64,000 bases of DNA from Candidatus Komeilibacteria bacterium. GTDB taxonomy: Bacteria > Patescibacteriota > Patescibacteriia > UBA1558. Below, piece by piece: positions 7,128-26,024 of this stretch. The stretch is taken from contig JBLYPX010000001.1 in the NCBI GenBank assembly GCA_048538235.1, positions 8,013-72,012 on the forward strand, in the 5' to 3' direction. The first letter of the stretch is position 1, and each line of letters begins with the position of its first letter. Made by a program: the position numbers and the translations under genes. The notes beneath the pieces were generated by a model. The model worked only from the letters and a program-made list of their open reading frames with translations. It had not been told where the DNA came from and did no database searches.

Positions 7128-7292
7128 ATGGCAAAAAGAGCAACTGGTGTTGGGAAGATGAAAAGATCTACTTCTCATAAAACCGCAAAAAGACTTGAAA
7201 TAAAGAAAGCTATGCTTGAAGAGAAAGGTAAAAAGACAAAGCATAAAAAACAAAGAAGAAAAGTCGCAAAGAAAAACAATACTAAGGTATAA
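7128..7292 (+). CDS. small highly basic protein (54 aa), hypothetical
   Basis: MAKRATGVGKMKRSTSHKTAKRLEIKKAMLEEKGKKTKHKKQRRKVAKKNNTKV; immediately followed by rho-independent terminator (aagaggacgat-ggtt-atcgtcctctt + T-run) at 7293..7326. No clear SD. Confidence 0.3.
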   Translation: MAKRATGVGKMKRSTSHKTAKRLEIKKAMLEEKGKKTKHKKQRRKVAKKNNTKV

Positions 7293-7332: not shown

Positions 7333-8430
7333 TTAAGCTGCAAGTTTGTTTTTGATCAGGGTAAGATATTCTTGCGCTTTATCCCAACCATGGGCGTGAA
7401 TACCGGTTGAACCCTTGGTTGTTTTTTCTTTCTCGAAAAGGGATTCCAAGTCGAGTTTGTTCTGGGGGTCAACTTCTTCCCAATTAATATTGATTACGCG
7501 TTTACGCCAACCAATAGTGAATGTACCGTATTCAGTCTGAACTTTATACCAGGGTGCACAGTATTCACATCGACAGTATTGATTTGGTATTGAATCAATT
7601 TGAAGGCTTGTGAACCCGGCAGCTGTGAATATATCAGTGAATTTTTCACCATATTCAAGTTCCAGCCGCTTTTCGTTACATTCATGATGATACAGGGTCC
7701 AGATATCAAAGTAGCACTCATCTCCTTCTTTGACTACATAGTCGTTTGAGATACCGTCACTTCTTCTAAGCCAGCCACTTTCATTCACTACAATATCTTT
7801 TTCCCAGTCTTGTTCCGGGTTGGGATATTTTGGTGAATTGTCGATGTAGGCATCGCTGCGGATGACCAGATCGCCACCAATGCGATAAACAGCATCTTTG
7901 ATCTCTGAAAAGTGAGCTTGGACCTCTGCCAGTGTTTTACCGACATAGTTTGTCATTGAAATTACTGTACTGTCTCGATACATAATAACATCAAAACAGC
8001 TTTCAATTGTCCACCCTGTGCCACAGTGTGGGCAGACAAGATCTTCTGGTGGAATATCACTACTACCTTGCCACCCCGTCATAGACGAGCGGCTCTTTGG
8101 CCAGTGCTCAGCACAATACTCAGCAAATTCCTTCCTGGTAAGGACATCTGGAATATTAGGCATGATAGTTTTGAGATCTAAGTCGCCCTTCATGAAGTTT
8201 CCGCAAGTGTCTAAATTCCACTTACCAAGAACGATAAATTCATTCAGTCGTTCTTTGCGCTGGTAGTAAGCTTCATGGCGGGCTTGCTCAAGAATGTTTA
8301 GCTTATTAAGGCTTGTGACGTGCTGAGCGATACCTTCCTTGGTGTCATACCAAGGTCTTCCTTCACTGTCATAATCAGGACTTTCGCCCATTGAGAATGT
8401 GTGGCTGGATTGTTGTACTATTACTCCCAT
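7333..8430 (-). CDS. hypothetical protein with two CxxC pairs (CPHCGTGW, CRCEYCAPW); visibly higher GC than neighbours
   Basis: 365 aa continuous ORF; codon usage noticeably richer in G/C than flanking genes; no recognisable family. Confidence 0.5.
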   Translation of the reverse strand: MGVIVQQSSHTFSMGESPDYDSEGRPWYDTKEGIAQHVTSLNKLNILEQARHEAYYQRKERLNEFIVLGKWNLDTCGNFMKGDLDLKTIMPNIPDVLTRKEFAEYCAEHWPKSRSSMTGWQGSSDIPPEDLVCPHCGTGWTIESCFDVIMYRDSTVISMTNYVGKTLAEVQAHFSEIKDAVYRIGGDLVIRSDAYIDNSPKYPNPEQDWEKDIVVNESGWLRRSDGISNDYVVKEGDECYFDIWTLYHHECNEKRLELEYGEKFTDIFTAAGFTSLQIDSIPNQYCRCEYCAPWYKVQTEYGTFTIGWRKRVININWEEVDPQNKLDLESLFEKEKTTKGSTGIHAHGWDKAQEYLTLIKNKLAA

Positions 8431-22366: not shown

Positions 22367-22395
22367 TTGACAAACTATGCAATATATGCTAAAAT
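22367..22395 (+). promoter_or_regulatory. consensus sigma70 promoter upstream of DGR target gene (TTGACA-17-TAAAAT)
   Basis: TTGACA 22367..22372, 17 nt spacer, TAAAAT 22390..22395; ~150 nt leader follows containing a 13 bp perfect inverted repeat. Confidence 0.55.
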
Positions 22396-22552
22396 AGATT
22401 ATTAATATAGTTCCTTGAAAGGCTATGAATTTAAGATATGAAGTGAGTATTGTGAGTATCTATTACTAGGTTCTTACTATACTCGCTTCATATGGTGTGA
22501 AGTAAGTCGTTATCCAAAGCGATTTTGGATGTTTAATTACAGGAGGTGTGCC

Positions 22553-23317
22553 ATGACTAAAGTGGTGAGCCGTACTTTATCAGTCCATAAGGAGCACGAA
22601 GTGCTTCTTAAACTAGAGACCGCTGGTCTCAACGATGAACTTGCTCAGGCAATCATTGATTCAAAGAGTAATCAACTTGCTACGAAAGTAGTTGAGCTGA
22701 TCAGTCGCAACGGCTACGAACCAAGTGTCATTGAAGAAAGAGCCCGTATGATCATGGGCAAGAACTTCTTTGGTGTTGCAGAAGCAATCAAGCATTTTAA
22801 AGTTAAACCCCTTAAAAAGCATACCAACGCTCTTGCCAAAGTACCTTTTACAGAAGAAATACTTGAAAAGTGTAAGGATACGCATATCCTTATCGCAGTA
22901 TTTCCTTTATCTCTTCTTGAGATAAGAAAGGCTGCTAAAGATCTTTTCTACTCCTCTGAAGGTGGCTGGTTTGAGAGCCAGGCTTTTGCTCAGGAAAGTT
23001 CAGAACCCCAATGGTGTCTCATTCAAAAAACTCCAGTTAAAGATTCAACATTCAAAAACTGGAAAGAACAACAGGCTCTTCTGCTAAAGAACGACGAAAC
23101 ACCCCCAGCCCATATAATGGTCTATACCATTATTGGACATTACCTGAATACAAAGGAACGAATCTTTGAAAACATCTGGGTTCGTACCTCATCCGTGGAT
23201 TCGGATGGCTACCGTGTGGTCGTCGGTGCTTTCGATTCGGGCGGTCTCAACGTCGACTACGACTGGGATGACAACCGTAATTCTTACCTCGGTGTCTCCT
23301 CCGCTCGGAAGTCCTGA
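22553..23317 (+). CDS. DGR target (variable) protein; C-terminal 40 aa encoded by the variable repeat, C-type-lectin-like NNNW...DDNRN motif
   Basis: AGGAGG RBS 7 nt before ATG 22553; higher GC than genome; C-terminal 120 bp is a mutated copy of the downstream TR. ORF-track start 22529 is upstream of the RBS. Confidence 0.8.
   Translation: MTKVVSRTLSVHKEHEVLLKLETAGLNDELAQAIIDSKSNQLATKVVELISRNGYEPSVIEERARMIMGKNFFGVAEAIKHFKVKPLKKHTNALAKVPFTEEILEKCKDTHILIAVFPLSLLEIRKAAKDLFYSSEGGWFESQAFAQESSEPQWCLIQKTPVKDSTFKNWKEQQALLLKNDETPPAHIMVYTIIGHYLNTKERIFENIWVRTSSVDSDGYRVVVGAFDSGGLNVDYDWDDNRNSYLGVSSARKS
23194..23313 (+). repeat. DGR variable repeat (VR)
   Basis: 120 bp, 110/120 identical to TR; all 10 mismatches are at TR adenines. 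Confidence 0.9.
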
Positions 23318-23336
23318 ATCTTGAGTTCTTGCTTAT

Positions 23337-23365
23337 CTATCCAATCCGCCTAGCGGATTGGATAG
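23337..23365. promoter_or_regulatory. hairpin immediately downstream of VR (12 bp perfect stem ctatccaatccg/cggattggatag, 5 nt loop)
   Basis: Seen directly in sequence, 24 nt after VR end; positionally analogous to the stem-loop/cruciform required for DGR homing in Bordetella phage BPP-1. Confidence 0.6.
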
Positions 23366-23757
23366 AATGACTTGTGCCTTTTGAATCCTTGAGTCCTCGT
23401 AAAAATTTTTGCGGGGACTCTTTTATTTTATATATACAGCTGTTATACTATTATTATCTTGCTAATGTAGATTCGGCTATTGCTTGATCTCGCGAGATGT
23501 CTCTTTTTACCCATATTGTATGGGGTTTGTTTACCAAAGTTTTAACTGCGGTAAGAGACTTTACCAGAATATCGTTGTTTAAGGATAACGATAGCGTGTG
23601 AATAAGAATAGAGATTAAACTTCTTATTTGTCTTTAGTGGAGATGTTCTATTATTAGGACTGCTCCCAAGTAAAATTCAGGAAGGAGAGAATATAGATCT
23701 GCATTGCAGGTGGTAAATCTCAACTTTTGGTGATGTGGATGAAGGCAAGTAATATTG

Positions 23758-23877
23758 CGTGGATTCGGATGACAACCGTGTGAACGTCGGTGATTTCGAT
23801 TCGGACGGTCTCAACGTCAACAACAACTGGGATGACAACCGTAATTCTAACCTCGGTGTCTCCTCCGCTCGGAAGTC
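23758..23877 (+). repeat. DGR template repeat (TR)
   Basis: Non-coding copy of VR, AAC-rich (encodes ...NVNNNWDDNRNSN... in VR frame); identical GC-rich 3' segment ggtgtctcctccgctcggaagtc (IMH-like) shared with VR. Confidence 0.9.
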
Positions 23878-23894
23878 TTTTCTCTATACTATTA

Positions 23895-23923
23895 AAAATA
23901 CTCTCCAATTAGGAGAGTATTTT
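23895..23923. terminator. hairpin between TR and avd 3' end (12 bp perfect stem aaaatactctcc/ggagagtatttt)
   Basis: Perfect stem with loop aatta; U-rich on both sides, so could terminate both the TR transcript (+) and avd (-). Confidence 0.5.
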
Positions 23924-23925
23924 AG

Positions 23926-24276
23926 TTAGTAGCTTTTGGTAGATTTTATCCATCCGCCAAGCATTCTACCTATTTCATCAACTAGCGTTTCAAGGGATAT
24001 GTATTTTTTAGAATCAATTGTTTTAGTATCTTTTAAAAGTCTTAAGAATATTCGTAAGAAGTTTAATTTAAGACTGGTTTTTTCTAGAATGGGAAGTTTC
24101 TCTGATTTTATTGCTTGGCTTGCCCACAGGATATTTTCAACAATATCTAGGATTATATTTTCACACCGTTGCCATGTGGTAAATCTATCTTGTTTAGGAA
24201 CACTGTTACGAAAACTGTGGAACAATTTGTATAGTTCATATGACTTTTTAAAAATAGGGATGTCAAAATCATTCAT
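23926..24276 (-). CDS. avd: DGR accessory variability determinant (Avd-like four-helix-bundle protein)
   Basis: 116 aa; C-terminal ETLVDEIGRMLGGWIKS matches Bordetella phage Avd LIAEVGRILGSWIAR; N-terminal YELYKLFHSF...PKQDRFTT typical of the S23-IVS/four-helix-bundle family. Opposite-strand ORF 23936..24283 is low complexity. Confidence 0.7.
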   Translation of the reverse strand: MNDFDIPIFKKSYELYKLFHSFRNSVPKQDRFTTWQRCENIILDIVENILWASQAIKSEKLPILEKTSLKLNFLRIFLRLLKDTKTIDSKKYISLETLVDEIGRMLGGWIKSTKSY

Positions 24277-24279
24277 GTT

Positions 24280-25329
24280 ATGAAAATTTATACTAATCTT
24301 TTTAAAAGAATAATATCCCTGGAAAATCTTTTTTTAGCGTGGGATAAATTTAAAGCCGATAAACAAACTAAGTCAGATGTACAAGAGTTTGCATTCTGTT
24401 TGGAAAAGAATATTTTTCAATTGCATAAAGATTTGAAGAGTGGGAATTATACACATGGCTCTTATACTTCTTTTTATATTCATGATCCAAAGTTACGTCA
24501 TATTCATAAGGCTGAAGTTAGGGATAGGGTTTTTCATCATGCTGTTTTTCAAATACTTAACCCTCTTTTTGAACCTACTTTTATTGCCACTTCTTTTTCG
24601 TGCCGAGTAAATAAAGGTACACATAAGGGAGTAGAGTGCGTGGAGAAGATGCTTAGAGTAGTAAGTAAGAATTATACTAAACCGTGTTTTGTCTTGAAAT
24701 GTGATGTTAAAAAGTTTTTTGACTCGGTTGATCATGATATTTTATTAAATATTTTAGGTAGAACAGTGAAAGATGATGTTGTTATGCGTCTTATGAAAGA
24801 AATTGTTGAAAGTTTTTCTAGTGGACGATCTACATTGTTTAGGTGGTGTGGAATTCCAATTGGTAATTTAACTTCGCAGTTGTTTGCTAATGTTTATATG
24901 AATGAATTTGATCATTTTGTGAAACATGAGCTAAAGGTTAAGTATTATGCTCGCTATACTGATGATTTTGTCATCATTCATAATGACATTAAGTATTTAA
25001 AAGGGTTAATTAGTAAGATAAATATTTTTTTACATGATAATTTAAGACTTGCCTTGCATCCGGGTAAGGTTTCCATAAATAAAGCTAGTCGTGGGGTAGA
25101 TTTTTTGGGATATATAATATTTCCTTATCATAAAATGGTACGCACCAAGACTAAAAATAGAGTTTTTAGAAAGTTAAGGCAAAAAATTAGAGTGTATAAA
25201 GTGGGAGAGTTACCCGAAGAGTCTCTTGAGCAAACACTTAATTCTTATTTGGGAGTTTTTTCTCACGCCAATGCTTTCGGGCTGGGTGAAAAATTGAAAA
25301 ACCAGTATTGGTTTTGGATAAATGAATAA
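24280..25329 (+). CDS. DGR reverse transcriptase
   Basis: RT motifs: FDSVDHDILL, GIPIGNLTSQLFANVYMNEFD (DGR-specific SQ in motif 4), YARYTDDFVI (YxDD), LGYIIFP; 349 aa typical size. Confidence 0.9.
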   Translation: MKIYTNLFKRIISLENLFLAWDKFKADKQTKSDVQEFAFCLEKNIFQLHKDLKSGNYTHGSYTSFYIHDPKLRHIHKAEVRDRVFHHAVFQILNPLFEPTFIATSFSCRVNKGTHKGVECVEKMLRVVSKNYTKPCFVLKCDVKKFFDSVDHDILLNILGRTVKDDVVMRLMKEIVESFSSGRSTLFRWCGIPIGNLTSQLFANVYMNEFDHFVKHELKVKYYARYTDDFVIIHNDIKYLKGLISKINIFLHDNLRLALHPGKVSINKASRGVDFLGYIIFPYHKMVRTKTKNRVFRKLRQKIRVYKVGELPEESLEQTLNSYLGVFSHANAFGLGEKLKNQYWFWINE

Positions 25330-25463
25330 TTTTTTTAAAAAACATTTTTATATTCAATGTTATACATAAATAATTAAAATGTCAATCCCTTTTTGATTTT
25401 ATACAGTCTAAAATTAATTATTTTAATAAAAACCCCTCTACCATGAAGAGGGGTTTTGTTGTT

Positions 25464-26024
25464 TTAGGAAGTTTTGAAGTAAATGTCTGTGAGTTGGCGG
25501 CCAAGTTGTTCGTCGTCCAGACCATAGCCGTGTAACCATTCATCACCATCGTATATGAAGCAGACTCTGTCATAAGCGCCCAGTCCTTTTTTTGAATGAT
25601 TGCGAGCCACAATTGCTACAATGATTACACGGTGTGCACCAGCAGCTAATAATTTCTTTTTAAGAAATTGAGTAGTGTCTCCGGTGTCAATAATGTCTTC
25701 AACCAAAACTATGTCTCGGTTTTTTACATCAGATCTCCACATGCTGGTAATTTTTGGAGCTACTTTTTTTTCAACACCTGGATAACTTGTCACACCGACT
25801 GCATCAATATGTACATCGATGTACAGTTTCCGATGAAGGTCTACTAGAAGATATTTTCCTCCAGTTTGAACCTCCATTAATATTGGGGGTTTTTTTGCTG
25901 TACTAAATTCACAACCTATCCAAGTAGCTAATTCTTCTATGCCACTGTTAATTTGTTCGTGGCTTAACCACTTTTTATAGATGCGGCCATTTACCTTGAT
26001 CCGACCATTACCTAATTCTTCCAT
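25464..26024 (-). CDS. hpt: hypoxanthine(-guanine) phosphoribosyltransferase
   Basis: PRPP-binding motif IVLVEDIIDTGDT; terminator aaaacccctct-accatga-agaggggtttt at ~25428..25458. Confidence 0.75.
   Translation of the reverse strand: MEELGNGRIKVNGRIYKKWLSHEQINSGIEELATWIGCEFSTAKKPPILMEVQTGGKYLLVDLHRKLYIDVHIDAVGVTSYPGVEKKVAPKITSMWRSDVKNRDIVLVEDIIDTGDTTQFLKKKLLAAGAHRVIIVAIVARNHSKKGLGAYDRVCFIYDGDEWLHGYGLDDEQLGRQLTDIYFKTS

What the first reader, a model, noticed from the sequence alone, without database searches (positions are those of the whole stretch)
23194..23877. Ten of ten VR/TR mismatches fall on TR adenines, mostly AAC codons
Codon-by-codon alignment gives these VR/TR pairs: ggc/gac, tac/aac, gtc/aac (2 changes), gct/gat, ggc/gac, gac/aac, tac/aac, gac/aac, tac/aac. 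Every substituted TR base is an A. The TR encodes ...DSDDNRVNVGDFDSDGLNVNNNWDDNRNSNLGVSS..., and the substitutions give VR residues G, Y, V, A, G, D, Y, D, Y at those positions. Two TR AAC codons are unchanged in this VR copy. The identical GC-rich tail ggtgtctcctccgctcggaagtc at both 3' ends is positioned like an IMH. This is the hallmark of active adenine-directed mutagenic homing, not passive duplicate decay.
Basis: seen in the sequence. Interest (0 to 1): 0.9.

Follow-up and report, generated by a model that had tools for sequence, protein, structure and literature searches.

The report
Adenine-mutating retroelement in a Patescibacteria genome
This is a complete diversity-generating retroelement, a known system that rewrites the tail of one protein using an error-prone reverse transcriptase. 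It belongs to a catalogued Patescibacteria type, and its template RNA also carries a large conserved folded domain that I could not find described.

Summary
VR (23194-23313, the end of target gene 22553-23317) and TR (23758-23877) are 120-nt direct repeats with 10 mismatches. All 10 fall on TR adenines (28 A in 120 nt; p = 1.1e-7), and all change the amino acid. TR has no A at any third codon position.

The surrounding locus is a full DGR:
- Avd (23926-24276, minus strand) scores above NCBIfam's curated cut-off.
- The RT (24280-25329) carries the DGR signature IGNLTSQ and a YTDD box. Its best PDB match is a 328-aa RT in 8ub7 (E 1e-49), which I take to be the Bordetella phage RT.
- A 14-bp hairpin lies 22 nt after VR.

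The gene order TR-(avd)-RT is the published architecture B3. In 27 VR/TR pairs from related loci, 421 of 447 mismatches sit on TR adenines. A syntenic relative lacks the TR-avd-RT module.

The window's VR shows no non-A drift from its TR, so homing was evolutionarily recent. Current activity cannot be shown from one sequence.

The new part is a covariation-supported folded RNA domain directly upstream of TR (23456-23757). It is about 250 nt in relatives and 302 nt here. It has its own promoter-like site, a helix that encloses TR, and no Rfam match.

Verdict: a new member of a known kind, of moderate interest.

The parts
22367..22395 (+). Promoter-like site of the target gene (TTGACA-17-TAAAAT, with TG before the -10 hexamer)
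   Evidence: Consensus scan, 11 of 12 matches. Function is inferred.
22436..22493 (+). Long hairpin in the 5' UTR of the target gene (atatgaagtgagtat...atactcgcttcatat)
   Evidence: Seen directly in the sequence. The equivalent hairpin ATGAGACGAGC...GCTCGTCTCAT is present with compensatory changes in many related loci, including ones without an RT nearby (A7). Function unknown.
22553..23317 (+). Target (variable protein) gene, 254 aa, with no recognised domain
   Evidence: ORF list. 100% identical to an NCBI hypothetical protein of a Candidatus Komeilibacteria MAG, with more than 560 homologues in Patescibacteria. No Pfam, NCBIfam or PHROG hit.
23194..23313 (+). VR, the variable repeat; it encodes the last ~40 residues of the target
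   Evidence: The hypervariable columns of the protein family coincide with the TR codons that contain A.
23291..23313 (+). IMH-like invariant G+C-rich 3' tail of VR; an identical copy lies at 23855-23877 in TR
   Evidence: The function as a homing initiation site is inferred by position.
23336..23366 (.). Inverted repeat (14-bp stem, 3-nt loop) 22 nt downstream of VR; candidate hairpin/cruciform for target recognition
   Evidence: Folded as DNA: -15.4 kcal/mol, z = -7.6. Related TCCGCC-loop-GGCGGA hairpins sit at the same place in L002, L018, L019 and L028. Most other relatives have a smaller covarying hairpin there.
23391..23420 (+). Intrinsic terminator of the target gene
   Evidence: Terminator scan and fold. 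Conserved across the family.
23427..23454 (+). Promoter-like site for the DGR RNA (TTTATA-16-TATTAT). An alternative extended -10 is TG 23441-23442 plus TATACT 23444-23449
   Evidence: Scan. By eye, a TGnTAnAnT-like element lies about 7 nt before the start of the conserved RNA block in most relatives in alignment A3, window coordinates. I did not score this statistically. Inferred.
23456..23757 (+). Conserved structured 5' domain of the DGR RNA (nine helices). The loop of helix 3 (23504-23554) is expanded by roughly 45 nt in this window only
   Evidence: 15-sequence alignment: 68 pairs, 39 with changes on both sides, 97.4% of cells paired against 43-48% when partners are slid. nhmmer finds it directly upstream of TR in all 23 loci that have a TR. 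No Rfam family matches.
23608..23614 (+). Upstream strand (AUAGAGA) of the long-range helix that encloses TR
   Evidence: Predicted independently by RNAalifold on the 23-sequence full-length alignment and by the single-sequence MFE fold. Cognate duplexes average -10.2 kcal/mol against -7.9 for non-cognate, permutation p = 5e-5.
23758..23877 (+). TR, the template repeat; non-coding, 28 adenines, 8 AAC codons in the VR frame
23881..23887 (+). Downstream strand (UCUCUAU) of the TR-enclosing helix, 3 nt after TR
23894..23923 (+). Stem-loop just downstream of TR (12-bp stem, 5-nt loop); candidate Avd-binding stem-loop and 3' end of the DGR RNA
   Evidence: Fold: z = -6.1. The stem covaries in 15 loci. 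It is kept in L040, where no avd gene follows TR. Its position matches the 'Avd-binding stem-loop' of Handa et al..
23926..24276 (-). avd, the accessory variability determinant, 116 aa, on the opposite strand to TR and RT
   Evidence: NCBIfam NF033474 DivGenRetAVD, 81.5 bits (cut-off 80). Pfam PF22296 bAvd, 6.6e-17. PHROG 3206 'Avd protein of DGR', 3e-19.
24280..25329 (+). DGR reverse transcriptase, 349 aa, intact
   Evidence: RVT_1, 2.6e-23. IGNLTSQ at residues 194-200 and YTDD at 226-229. Best PDB match is the 328-aa RT of 8ub7, E 1.2e-49, aligned end to end, with bRT R74 and I181 conserved as R73 and I194.
25429..25457 (.). Terminator-like hairpin between RT and the convergent hpt gene; right end of the cassette
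   Evidence: Terminator scan on both strands. Synteny with L053 resumes at 25468.

Best explanation
The locus is a chromosomal diversity-generating retroelement (DGR) of a Candidatus Komeilibacteria (Patescibacteria/CPR) bacterium. Its gene order is target-VR / DGR RNA with TR / avd (opposite strand) / RT.

Proposed mechanism:
1. An RNA of about 470-480 nt is transcribed from its own promoter near 23427-23454. It contains a 302-nt folded 5' domain, the 120-nt TR and a 3' stem-loop.
2. A helix between 23608-23614 and 23881-23887 closes TR into a loop. The RT-Avd complex assembles on this scaffold.
3. The RT copies TR into cDNA and inserts random nucleotides opposite template adenines.
4. The cDNA replaces VR at the end of the target gene. 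Guidance comes from the shared G+C-rich 3' tail plus the hairpin downstream of VR.

Because TR adenines occupy only codon positions 1 and 2, mostly in AAC codons, each round recodes up to about 20 residues in the last 40 amino acids without creating stop codons.

Shown here: the A-only mismatch pattern, the presence and intactness of RT and Avd, the RNA structure by covariation, and the family-wide recurrence.

Inferred from the Bordetella phage paradigm: transcription limits, RNP assembly, cDNA synthesis and homing.
For: - All 10 VR/TR mismatches fall on TR adenines, p = 1.1e-7.
- All changes are non-synonymous, and TR has no A at a third codon position.
- Avd scores above the curated cut-off and matches the PHROG 'Avd protein of DGR'.
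- The RT carries the DGR signature IGNLTSQ. It aligns end to end with the 328-aa RT of PDB 8ub7 at E 1e-49, against 1e-22 for the best group II intron RT. The two residues shown to promote adenine mutagenesis are conserved (PMC7826257).
- A hairpin lies 22 nt after VR.
- The family test on 27 VR/TR pairs gives 421 mismatches at 798 A sites (53%) against 26 at 2433 non-A sites (1.1%). Sixteen of those 26 lie 3-6 nt from the repeat end.
- The hypervariable protein columns equal the TR codons that contain A.
- The window's VR has 0 of 92 non-A differences from its TR. The orthologous VR in syntenic L053 has 14 of 92, so homing occurred after most of that divergence.
- The RNA scaffold is supported. 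Invariant G-U pairs fit the + strand only.
- Architecture TR-(avd)-RT is class B3 of Wu et al..
Against: - No population or read-level data exist. The exact RT protein is not on record elsewhere. A metagenome scan for VR alleles found nothing.
- IMH and IMH* are identical here, unlike 15 of the 26 related VR/TR pairs.
- The window's RNA has an insertion of roughly 45 nt in one loop, with unknown effect.
- The variable region could not be modelled (pLDDT about 33), so a C-type lectin fold is unconfirmed.
- Promoter and terminator assignments are consensus matches only. Promoter-like sites are no more frequent in this region than in shuffled sequence.
Confidence: 0.9

Rival explanations
1. Fossil DGR. 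The element diversified VR in the past but no longer does, and the A-only pattern is a frozen record.
For: - DGR loss is common in this family. Syntenic L053 keeps the target but lacks the whole TR-avd-RT module.
- L003, L008 and L028 keep only truncated remnants of the upstream RNA domain, and L004, L008 and L028 keep only 3' fragments of the RT gene.
- Four relatives have frame-broken RT genes.
- The window's RNA carries a lineage-specific loop insertion, and IMH equals IMH*.
- Only 10 of 28 A sites differ here, against 53% on average in the family.
Against: - RT (349 aa) and Avd (116 aa) are full-length, with catalytic and signature motifs intact.
- All nine RNA helices, the TR-enclosing helix and the 3' stem-loop are intact.
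- There is no non-A difference in 92 positions, although the surrounding DNA is about 20% diverged from the nearest relative.
Confidence: 0.15
2. Ordinary duplicated segment, or gene conversion between two copies of a coding fragment. The mismatches are neutral decay that happens by chance to fall on A.
For: Two direct repeats 564 nt apart could in principle arise by duplication.
Against: - The probability of 10 of 10 mismatches on A is 1.1e-7.
- The same bias holds in 27 independent pairs, 421 against 26.
- The A-rich copy is non-coding and lies next to a DGR-type RT and Avd.
- A is absent from third codon positions in TR.
Confidence: 0.01
3. The reverse transcriptase belongs to another retroelement class (group II intron, retron or defence RT), and the repeats are incidental.
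For: NCBIfam lists sub-threshold similarity to the group II intron RT/maturase family (149 bits against a cut-off of 300), Drt3a, Drt2 and a retron RT.
Against: - All of those hits are far below their curated cut-offs.
- There is no intron RNA domain or retron msr/msd match in Rfam.
- The motif is IGNLTSQ rather than QGxxxSP (PMC7826257).
- The closest solved structure is the 328-aa RT of 8ub7, by 27 orders of magnitude in E-value.
- An Avd gene is adjacent.
Confidence: 0.02

Closest known systems
Bordetella phage BPP-1 DGR (mtd-VR / avd / TR / brt), the experimental prototype
   Same: - A-specific TR-to-VR differences, AAC-rich TR, and VR at the 3' end of the target.
- Avd plus an RT with [I/V/L]GxxxSQ. 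Equivalents of bRT R74 and I181 are conserved.
- A G+C-rich tail at the 3' end of both repeats and an inverted repeat after VR.
[quoted passage not shown]
   Different: - The element is chromosomal, in a Patescibacteria cell rather than a phage.
- avd lies on the opposite strand, between TR and RT, so TR cannot be preceded by avd coding RNA.
- A dedicated ~250-300-nt folded non-coding domain precedes TR instead.
- The upstream strand of the TR-enclosing helix is about 145 nt before TR, with a four-helix domain in between, rather than adjacent to TR.
- The RT-10 Rfam motif of BPP-1 is not matched.
- IMH and IMH* are identical here.
- The target has no recognised C-type lectin domain.
CPR/Patescibacteria DGRs: the 'CPR set' and architecture B3, TR-(avd)-RT, of Wu et al. 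2018 (PMC5758913); DGR clade 2 of Roux et al. 2021 (PMC8144416)
   Same: - Host phylum and cellular (non-phage) context.
- A target protein with no transmembrane segment or known domain.
- The same gene order, with avd inverted.
- A VR that cannot be assigned to the CLec or Ig classes by sequence.
   Different: - I did not place this RT on those trees, so membership of clade 2 is by host and features only.
- The conserved 5' RNA domain, its promoter-like site and the long-range helix are not mentioned in the texts I could search. Paul et al. 2017 could not be read.
Conserved DGR RNA elements of Handa et al. (bioRxiv 10.1101/2023.10.23.563531): the Avd-binding stem-loop and the 'cPRT Stop' duplex
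   Same: [quoted passage not shown] That paper reports both features across phyla, including CPR.
   Different: Their survey used only 40 nt upstream of TR. Here the pairing partner lies about 145 nt upstream, inside a much larger conserved fold that such a survey would miss.

Membership tests
Diversity-generating retroelement (DGR) | A TR/VR repeat pair whose differences are confined to adenines of TR | tested here: met
   10 of 10 mismatches on A, p = 1.1e-7. In the family, 421 of 447 fall on A.
Diversity-generating retroelement (DGR) | A reverse transcriptase with the DGR signature motif [I/V/L]GxxxSQ and a YxDD catalytic box | tested here: met
   IGNLTSQ at 194-200 and YTDD at 226-229. Full-length alignment to the 328-aa RT of 8ub7, E 1.2e-49. 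Motif definition taken from PMC7826257.
Diversity-generating retroelement (DGR) | VR inside the 3' end of a protein-coding target, with TR non-coding and close to the RT | tested here: met
   VR forms the last 40 codons of ORF 22553-23317. TR lies in the intergenic region 402 nt upstream of the RT start.
Diversity-generating retroelement (DGR) | The accessory protein Avd (present in most but not all DGRs) | tested here: met
   NF033474, 81.5 bits against a cut-off of 80. PF22296. PHROG 3206. phmmer finds no PDB relative by sequence.
Diversity-generating retroelement (DGR) | TR adenines concentrated at codon positions 1 and 2 (AAC/AAY codons), so mutagenesis recodes without making stops | tested here: met
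   28 A: 10 at position 1, 18 at position 2, 0 at position 3. There are 8 AAC codons.
Diversity-generating retroelement (DGR) | IMH at the 3' end of VR and a non-identical IMH* at the 3' end of TR | tested here: inconclusive
   A G+C-rich invariant tail is present in both copies, but it is identical up to the last repeat base. In 15 of the 26 related pairs TR differs from VR at a non-A base 3-6 nt from the end. Identical IMH and IMH* are reported for some DGRs.
Diversity-generating retroelement (DGR) | An inverted repeat (hairpin/cruciform) downstream of VR that is absent after TR | tested here: met
   14-bp stem at 23336-23366, z = -7.6. TR is followed by a different sequence. Wu et al. find this repeat in only 34% of DGRs.
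Diversity-generating retroelement (DGR) | A variable protein that displays the variable residues on a C-type lectin (or Ig) fold | tested here: inconclusive
Diversity-generating retroelement (DGR) | Demonstrated cDNA synthesis and mutagenic homing | not testable with these tools
   This needs sequencing reads from the source sample or biochemistry. The look-up of the exact RT protein and the metagenome scan for VR alleles were both empty.
DGR architecture B3, TR-(avd)-RT (Wu et al. 2018) | The order TR, then avd on the reverse strand, then RT | tested here: met
   TR 23758-23877 (+), avd 24276-23926 (-), RT 24280-25329 (+). The same order holds in at least 15 related loci. Class definition.
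DGR clade 2 of Roux et al. 2021 (Patescibacteria-restricted) | The RT falls in clade 2 of their RT phylogeny | not tested
   No tree was built. The host (Candidatus Komeilibacteria), the cellular context and the domain-less target are consistent.
Rfam RT-10 motif (the BPP-1 DGR RNA between TR and brt) and other RT-n motifs | A covariance-model match | tested here: not met
   No RT-n family appears at gathering score in the whole window, nor at E <= 10 in 23300-23960.
BPP-1-type DGR RNA scaffold (Handa et al.) | A stem-loop just downstream of TR, plus a duplex between upstream and downstream flanks that encloses TR | tested here: met
   Stem-loop at 23894-23923 with covariation. Helix 23608-23614/23881-23887 is predicted by RNAalifold and by MFE, and cognate pairs are favoured with p = 5e-5. 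Protein binding and the stop function cannot be tested here.

The most novel reading that the evidence does not exclude
In this Patescibacteria DGR clade the template RNA is a self-contained transcription unit: its own promoter, a ~250-300-nt nine-helix 5' domain, then TR, then a 3' stem-loop. The 5' domain replaces the avd-coding and spacer RNA that scaffold the RT-Avd complex in the Bordetella phage element. On this reading it is an undescribed class of structured RNA, absent from Rfam, that is required for priming and for limiting cDNA synthesis to TR.

A second, separate possibility comes from relatives, not from this window. The RT there appears to be switched on and off by slippage of a simple-sequence repeat placed just before the catalytic IGNLTSQ motif.
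Probability: 0.45. Interest if true: 0.6.

Novelty: new member of a known kind. Interest (0 to 1): 0.4.

Why it matters
As a DGR, this adds one well-preserved example to a type already catalogued by the thousands in candidate-phyla bacteria. It does not change the picture of how such elements work.

Its value is as a clean reference locus. All parts are intact, the VR/TR pair has no noise, and a syntenic relative without the module marks the exact boundaries.

The conserved folded RNA in front of TR is the part that could matter. Work on the Bordetella phage element shows that flanking RNA controls priming, processivity and termination of reverse transcription. The catalogues I could search did not examine RNA this far upstream in the Patescibacteria elements.

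A defined ~470-nt RNA together with a 349-aa RT and a 116-aa Avd makes a compact system that could be reconstituted. It could also be compared with the DGR-based mutagenesis tools now under development.

Tried and rejected
- The exact-sequence look-up of the RT found no other contig.
- A metagenome scan for VR alleles, using TR with every A replaced by N, found nothing. No population evidence could be obtained.
- Pfam at E <= 1 across 43 family members gave only scattered weak hits (Pdc1_Ge1 in 15 members, best E 0.005). I regard these as noise.
- Rfam at E <= 10 gave only chance hairpin hits, such as miRNA precursors and a Phe leader.
- I tested whether the repeats that flank the cassette in relatives are tRNA genes. 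They are not. The window's own cassette has no flanking repeat.
- Paul et al. 2017 (Nat Microbiol) could not be read. I therefore cannot exclude that the RNA domain is mentioned there.
- I considered building a covariance model of the RNA.
Full report
**Observation**

The window holds one 120-nt direct repeat, 23194-23313 and 23758-23877, at 92% identity. An ungapped comparison shows 10 mismatches. In every one the downstream copy has A: five A>G, four A>T and one A>C.

That copy has 28 A in 120 nt. The chance that 10 random mismatch positions all fall on A is 1.1e-7.

TR has 8 AAC codons; 6 are changed and 2 are unchanged. All 9 altered codons change the amino acid.

None of the 28 TR adenines is at a third codon position ((2/3)^28 = 1.2e-5). 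The only correction is that the repeat has 28 A positions, not 23. No other copy of the repeat exists in the 64 kb.

**What surrounds it**

- The upstream copy (VR) is the last 40 codons of a 254-aa protein. That protein is 100% identical to a hypothetical protein of a Candidatus Komeilibacteria MAG on an 860-kb contig.
- The downstream copy (TR) is non-coding.
- Forty-eight nucleotides after TR, on the opposite strand, a 116-aa gene ends (23926-24276). It scores above NCBIfam's curated cut-off for the DGR protein Avd (81.5 against 80 bits). It also matches Pfam bAvd and the PHROG 'Avd protein of DGR'.
- Three bases from its start codon, and diverging from it, begins a 349-aa reverse transcriptase (24280-25329).
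- The RT has the DGR signature IGNLTSQ and a YTDD box. It aligns end to end with the 328-aa reverse transcriptase of PDB 8ub7-8ube at E 1.2e-49. The best group II intron RT reaches only 2e-22.
- I take 8ub7 to be the Bordetella phage enzyme, from its length and motifs. The PDB file names it only 'Reverse transcriptase'.
- The two residues that Handa et al. showed to promote adenine mutagenesis, R74 and I181, align with R73 and I194 here.
- A 14-bp inverted repeat lies 22 nt after VR (23336-23366; z = -7.6). The target gene's terminator follows at 23391-23420.
- The flanking genes are housekeeping genes: fur, nifS, nifU and pepA upstream; hpt, an MBL-fold hydrolase and a ribonucleotide reductase downstream. 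The element is therefore chromosomal.

**Family evidence**

The target protein has more than 560 homologues of about 254 aa, all from Patescibacteria, about 60-65% identical, with no Pfam domain. In their alignment the only hypervariable columns are those encoded by TR codons that contain A. The consensus is VDSDGxRVxVGxFDSxGLxVxxxWDxxRxxxLGVSSARKF.

A scan of one genome per species returned 52 loci. About two dozen carry TR, avd and RT within 5 kb. At least 15 have the same order as the window: target-VR, TR, avd reversed, RT.

Over 27 VR/TR pairs (the window's own plus 26 from related loci), 421 mismatches fall on 798 TR adenines (53%). Only 26 fall on 2433 other positions (1.1%). Sixteen of those 26 lie 3-6 nt from the repeat end.

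Those end-proximal differences (VR GGAAG against TR GGAAC or GGCAG) are the expected IMH versus IMH* distinction. The window lacks it; its two tails are identical. Here the donor and the recipient must be distinguished by what follows: the hairpin side after VR, against UUUUCUCUAU plus a stem-loop after TR. Wu et al. note that identical IMH and IMH* occur in some DGRs, and they list TR-(avd)-RT as architecture B3. Roux et al. describe a DGR clade restricted to Patescibacteria whose targets lack recognisable domains.

**Is it active?**

One sequence cannot show current activity, and no population data could be found. There is comparative evidence, however.

The closest relative of the target (74% protein identity) lies in a contig with the same gene order as the window and about 79.5% DNA identity. 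The window's 23353-25467 (2.1 kb: ncRNA, TR, avd, RT) is replaced there by 114 nt.

That relative's VR differs from the window's TR at 16 of 28 A sites and at 14 of 92 non-A sites. The window's own VR differs from its TR at 10 of 28 A sites and at 0 of 92 non-A sites. VR has therefore been overwritten from TR after most of the divergence between these two genomes.

With RT, Avd and every RNA helix intact, I rate recent or ongoing activity as likely. A dormant element is the main alternative.

Loss of the module is clearly frequent. L003, L008 and L028 keep truncated remnants of the RNA, and L004, L008 and L028 keep only the 3' end of the RT gene.

**A conserved folded RNA in front of TR**

Aligning the VR-TR interval of 15 loci showed that the ~250 nt immediately upstream of TR are strongly conserved, although the flanking proteins are only 50-65% identical.

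RNAalifold predicts nine helices with 68 pairs. In a pair count, 97.4% of cells form standard pairs, against 43-48% when partners are slid by 1-3 columns. Thirty-nine pairs show changes on both sides, against 8-14 in the slid controls. No shuffle out of 500 reached the observed values.

Several invariant G-U pairs mean the fold exists only on the + strand, the strand of TR.

An nhmmer profile finds the element directly upstream of TR in all 23 loci that have a TR. This includes loci where the module is inverted relative to the target, or is separated from avd-RT.

In the window it spans 23456-23757. The loop of helix 3 (23504-23554) is expanded by roughly 45 nt that no close relative has.

A promoter-like site (TTTATA-16-TATTAT, 23427-23454) lies just upstream of where conservation starts. 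By eye, an extended -10 (TGnTAnAnT-like) occupies a similar position in most relatives. Promoter-like matches in this region are no commoner than in shuffled sequence, so this is a weak line of evidence.

On a 23-sequence alignment of the whole RNA, RNAalifold also predicts a long-range helix. It joins a conserved single-stranded segment (window 23608-23614, AUAGAGA) to the bases right after TR (23881-23887, UCUCUAU). The single-sequence MFE fold of 23456-23935 gives the same helix (z = -4.9).

Every one of the 23 sequences keeps complementarity there, with shifting register and bulges. Cognate duplexes are more stable than non-cognate ones (-10.2 against -7.9 kcal/mol; permutation p = 5e-5).

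A 12-bp stem-loop follows at 23894-23923. Its stem covaries. It is retained in L040, where no avd gene follows TR, so it belongs to the RNA and is not merely the avd terminator.

These two 3' features correspond to elements that Handa et al. found in the Bordetella RNP and predicted in 207 of 278 DGRs: the 'Avd-binding stem-loop just downstream of TR' and the upstream:downstream duplex. Their survey took only 40 nt upstream of TR. It would not have seen a partner 145 nt upstream or the domain around it.

Rfam 15 includes the RT-1 to RT-19 motifs of Weinberg et al. (RT-10 is the BPP-1 DGR RNA). It gives no match at gathering score, or at E <= 10. Full-text searches turned up no description. Paul et al. 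2017 could not be read.

**Mechanism**

The shown and inferred steps are set out in the best explanation. In short, a stand-alone DGR RNA folds so that TR is looped out between the 5' domain and the 3' stem-loop. RT-Avd copies TR with random insertion opposite A. The cDNA then replaces VR, guided by the shared tail and the post-VR hairpin.

**The variable protein**

Its function is unknown. It has no signal peptide-like or hydrophobic N-terminus by inspection, and no domain hit.

Residues 60-205 fold confidently, but the variable tail does not. Nothing in the PDB resembles the model. Whether the VR sits on a C-type lectin fold remains open.

**Verdict**

The finding is real and correctly interpreted. 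The associated RNA domain, and the features of relatives listed under 'noticed in passing', give it moderate extra interest.

Noticed in passing
L005:7190-7235, L015:7205-7230, L039:6640-6680, L035:4475-4495: In 4 of 21 related RT genes a simple-sequence repeat sits at the same place, 20-40 nt before the codons of the catalytic IGNLTSQ motif. The repeats are (CT)7(GA)6, (AG)8, (GA)9 and G10. In all four assemblies the RT frame is broken across the repeat. This looks like slipped-strand phase variation that switches the DGR on and off. The window's RT has no such tract.
   Followed up: partly
L014:4755-4834 and 7716-7795; L021:4786-4859 and 7796-7869; L039:4247-4319 and 7183-7255; L033:4460-4648 and 7820-8008: In four relatives the whole ~3-kb cassette (target, RNA/TR, avd, RT) is bracketed by long direct repeats of 73-189 nt, 85-100% identical. 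The repeats are duplicated host sequence and differ in each locus. In L014, by my own reading of the sequence, the repeat is the first 80 nt of a host gene. They are not tRNA genes. This suggests the cassette moves as a unit and leaves long target duplications. No such repeat flanks the window's cassette.
   Followed up: partly
L053:4001-5022 versus window 22553-25467: The closest relative has the same gene order (fur, nifS, nifU, pepA, target, hpt, MBL, RNR) at about 79.5% DNA identity. It keeps the target gene, but has 114 nt where the window has the 2.1-kb RNA/TR-avd-RT module. The left breakpoint falls inside the post-VR hairpin (23352/23353). The right breakpoint is at the end of hpt (25468).
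   Followed up: yes
L003:5869-5994, L008:5910-6154, L028:5896-6140, L004:5839-6144: These are decayed DGRs. L003, L008 and L028 retain only part of the conserved RNA domain after the target gene. L004, L008 and L028 retain only the last 50-100 codons of the RT. Together they point to repeated internal deletions that remove TR, avd and most of the RT.
   Followed up: partly
window 22436-22493: The 5' UTR of the target gene holds a long hairpin. It is conserved with compensatory changes (GAAGTGAGTA/TACTCGCTTC here against GAGACGAGC/GCTCGTCTC elsewhere) in many related loci, including loci without an RT nearby, and a second small hairpin follows it. There is no Rfam match and its function is unknown.
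   Followed up: partly
window 23314-23395 and the equivalent region of most related loci: The 70-80 nt after the target's stop codon contain a short motif, (C/T)TTGA(G/A), repeated 4-5 times at spacings of about 9-10 nt in most relatives. It surrounds a small covarying hairpin and runs into the terminator. It is kept in loci with and without an RT within 5 kb. The window has fewer copies and a larger hairpin instead. I could not decide whether this is a homing signal or a 3'-UTR feature.
   Followed up: partly
window 23504-23554: The loop of helix 3 of the RNA domain is expanded by roughly 45 nt in the window only. The extra sequence contains its own small hairpin (CCCATA/TATGGG). L023, L024 and L040 have different insertions at the same loop, which is consistent with a structurally tolerant site.
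   Followed up: partly
window 24276-24280: The avd and RT start codons face away from each other and are only 3 nt apart (3-14 nt in most relatives). Each gene's promoter must therefore lie inside the other's coding sequence, or the RT is translated from read-through of the DGR RNA across antisense avd.
   Followed up: no
L006, L013, L017, L023, L040: Several relatives have two or three paralogous target genes in tandem. Each carries its own VR, and each VR differs from the locus's single TR almost only at A positions (a few have one non-A mismatch). One TR therefore appears to serve multiple targets.
   Followed up: partly
L009:1238-3192: L009 carries a second, unrelated DGR about 2 kb upstream of the family one. 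Its VR (1238-1374) and TR (1603-1739) show 21 of 21 mismatches on A. It has its own Avd-like gene and an RT only 35% identical to the window's.
   Followed up: no
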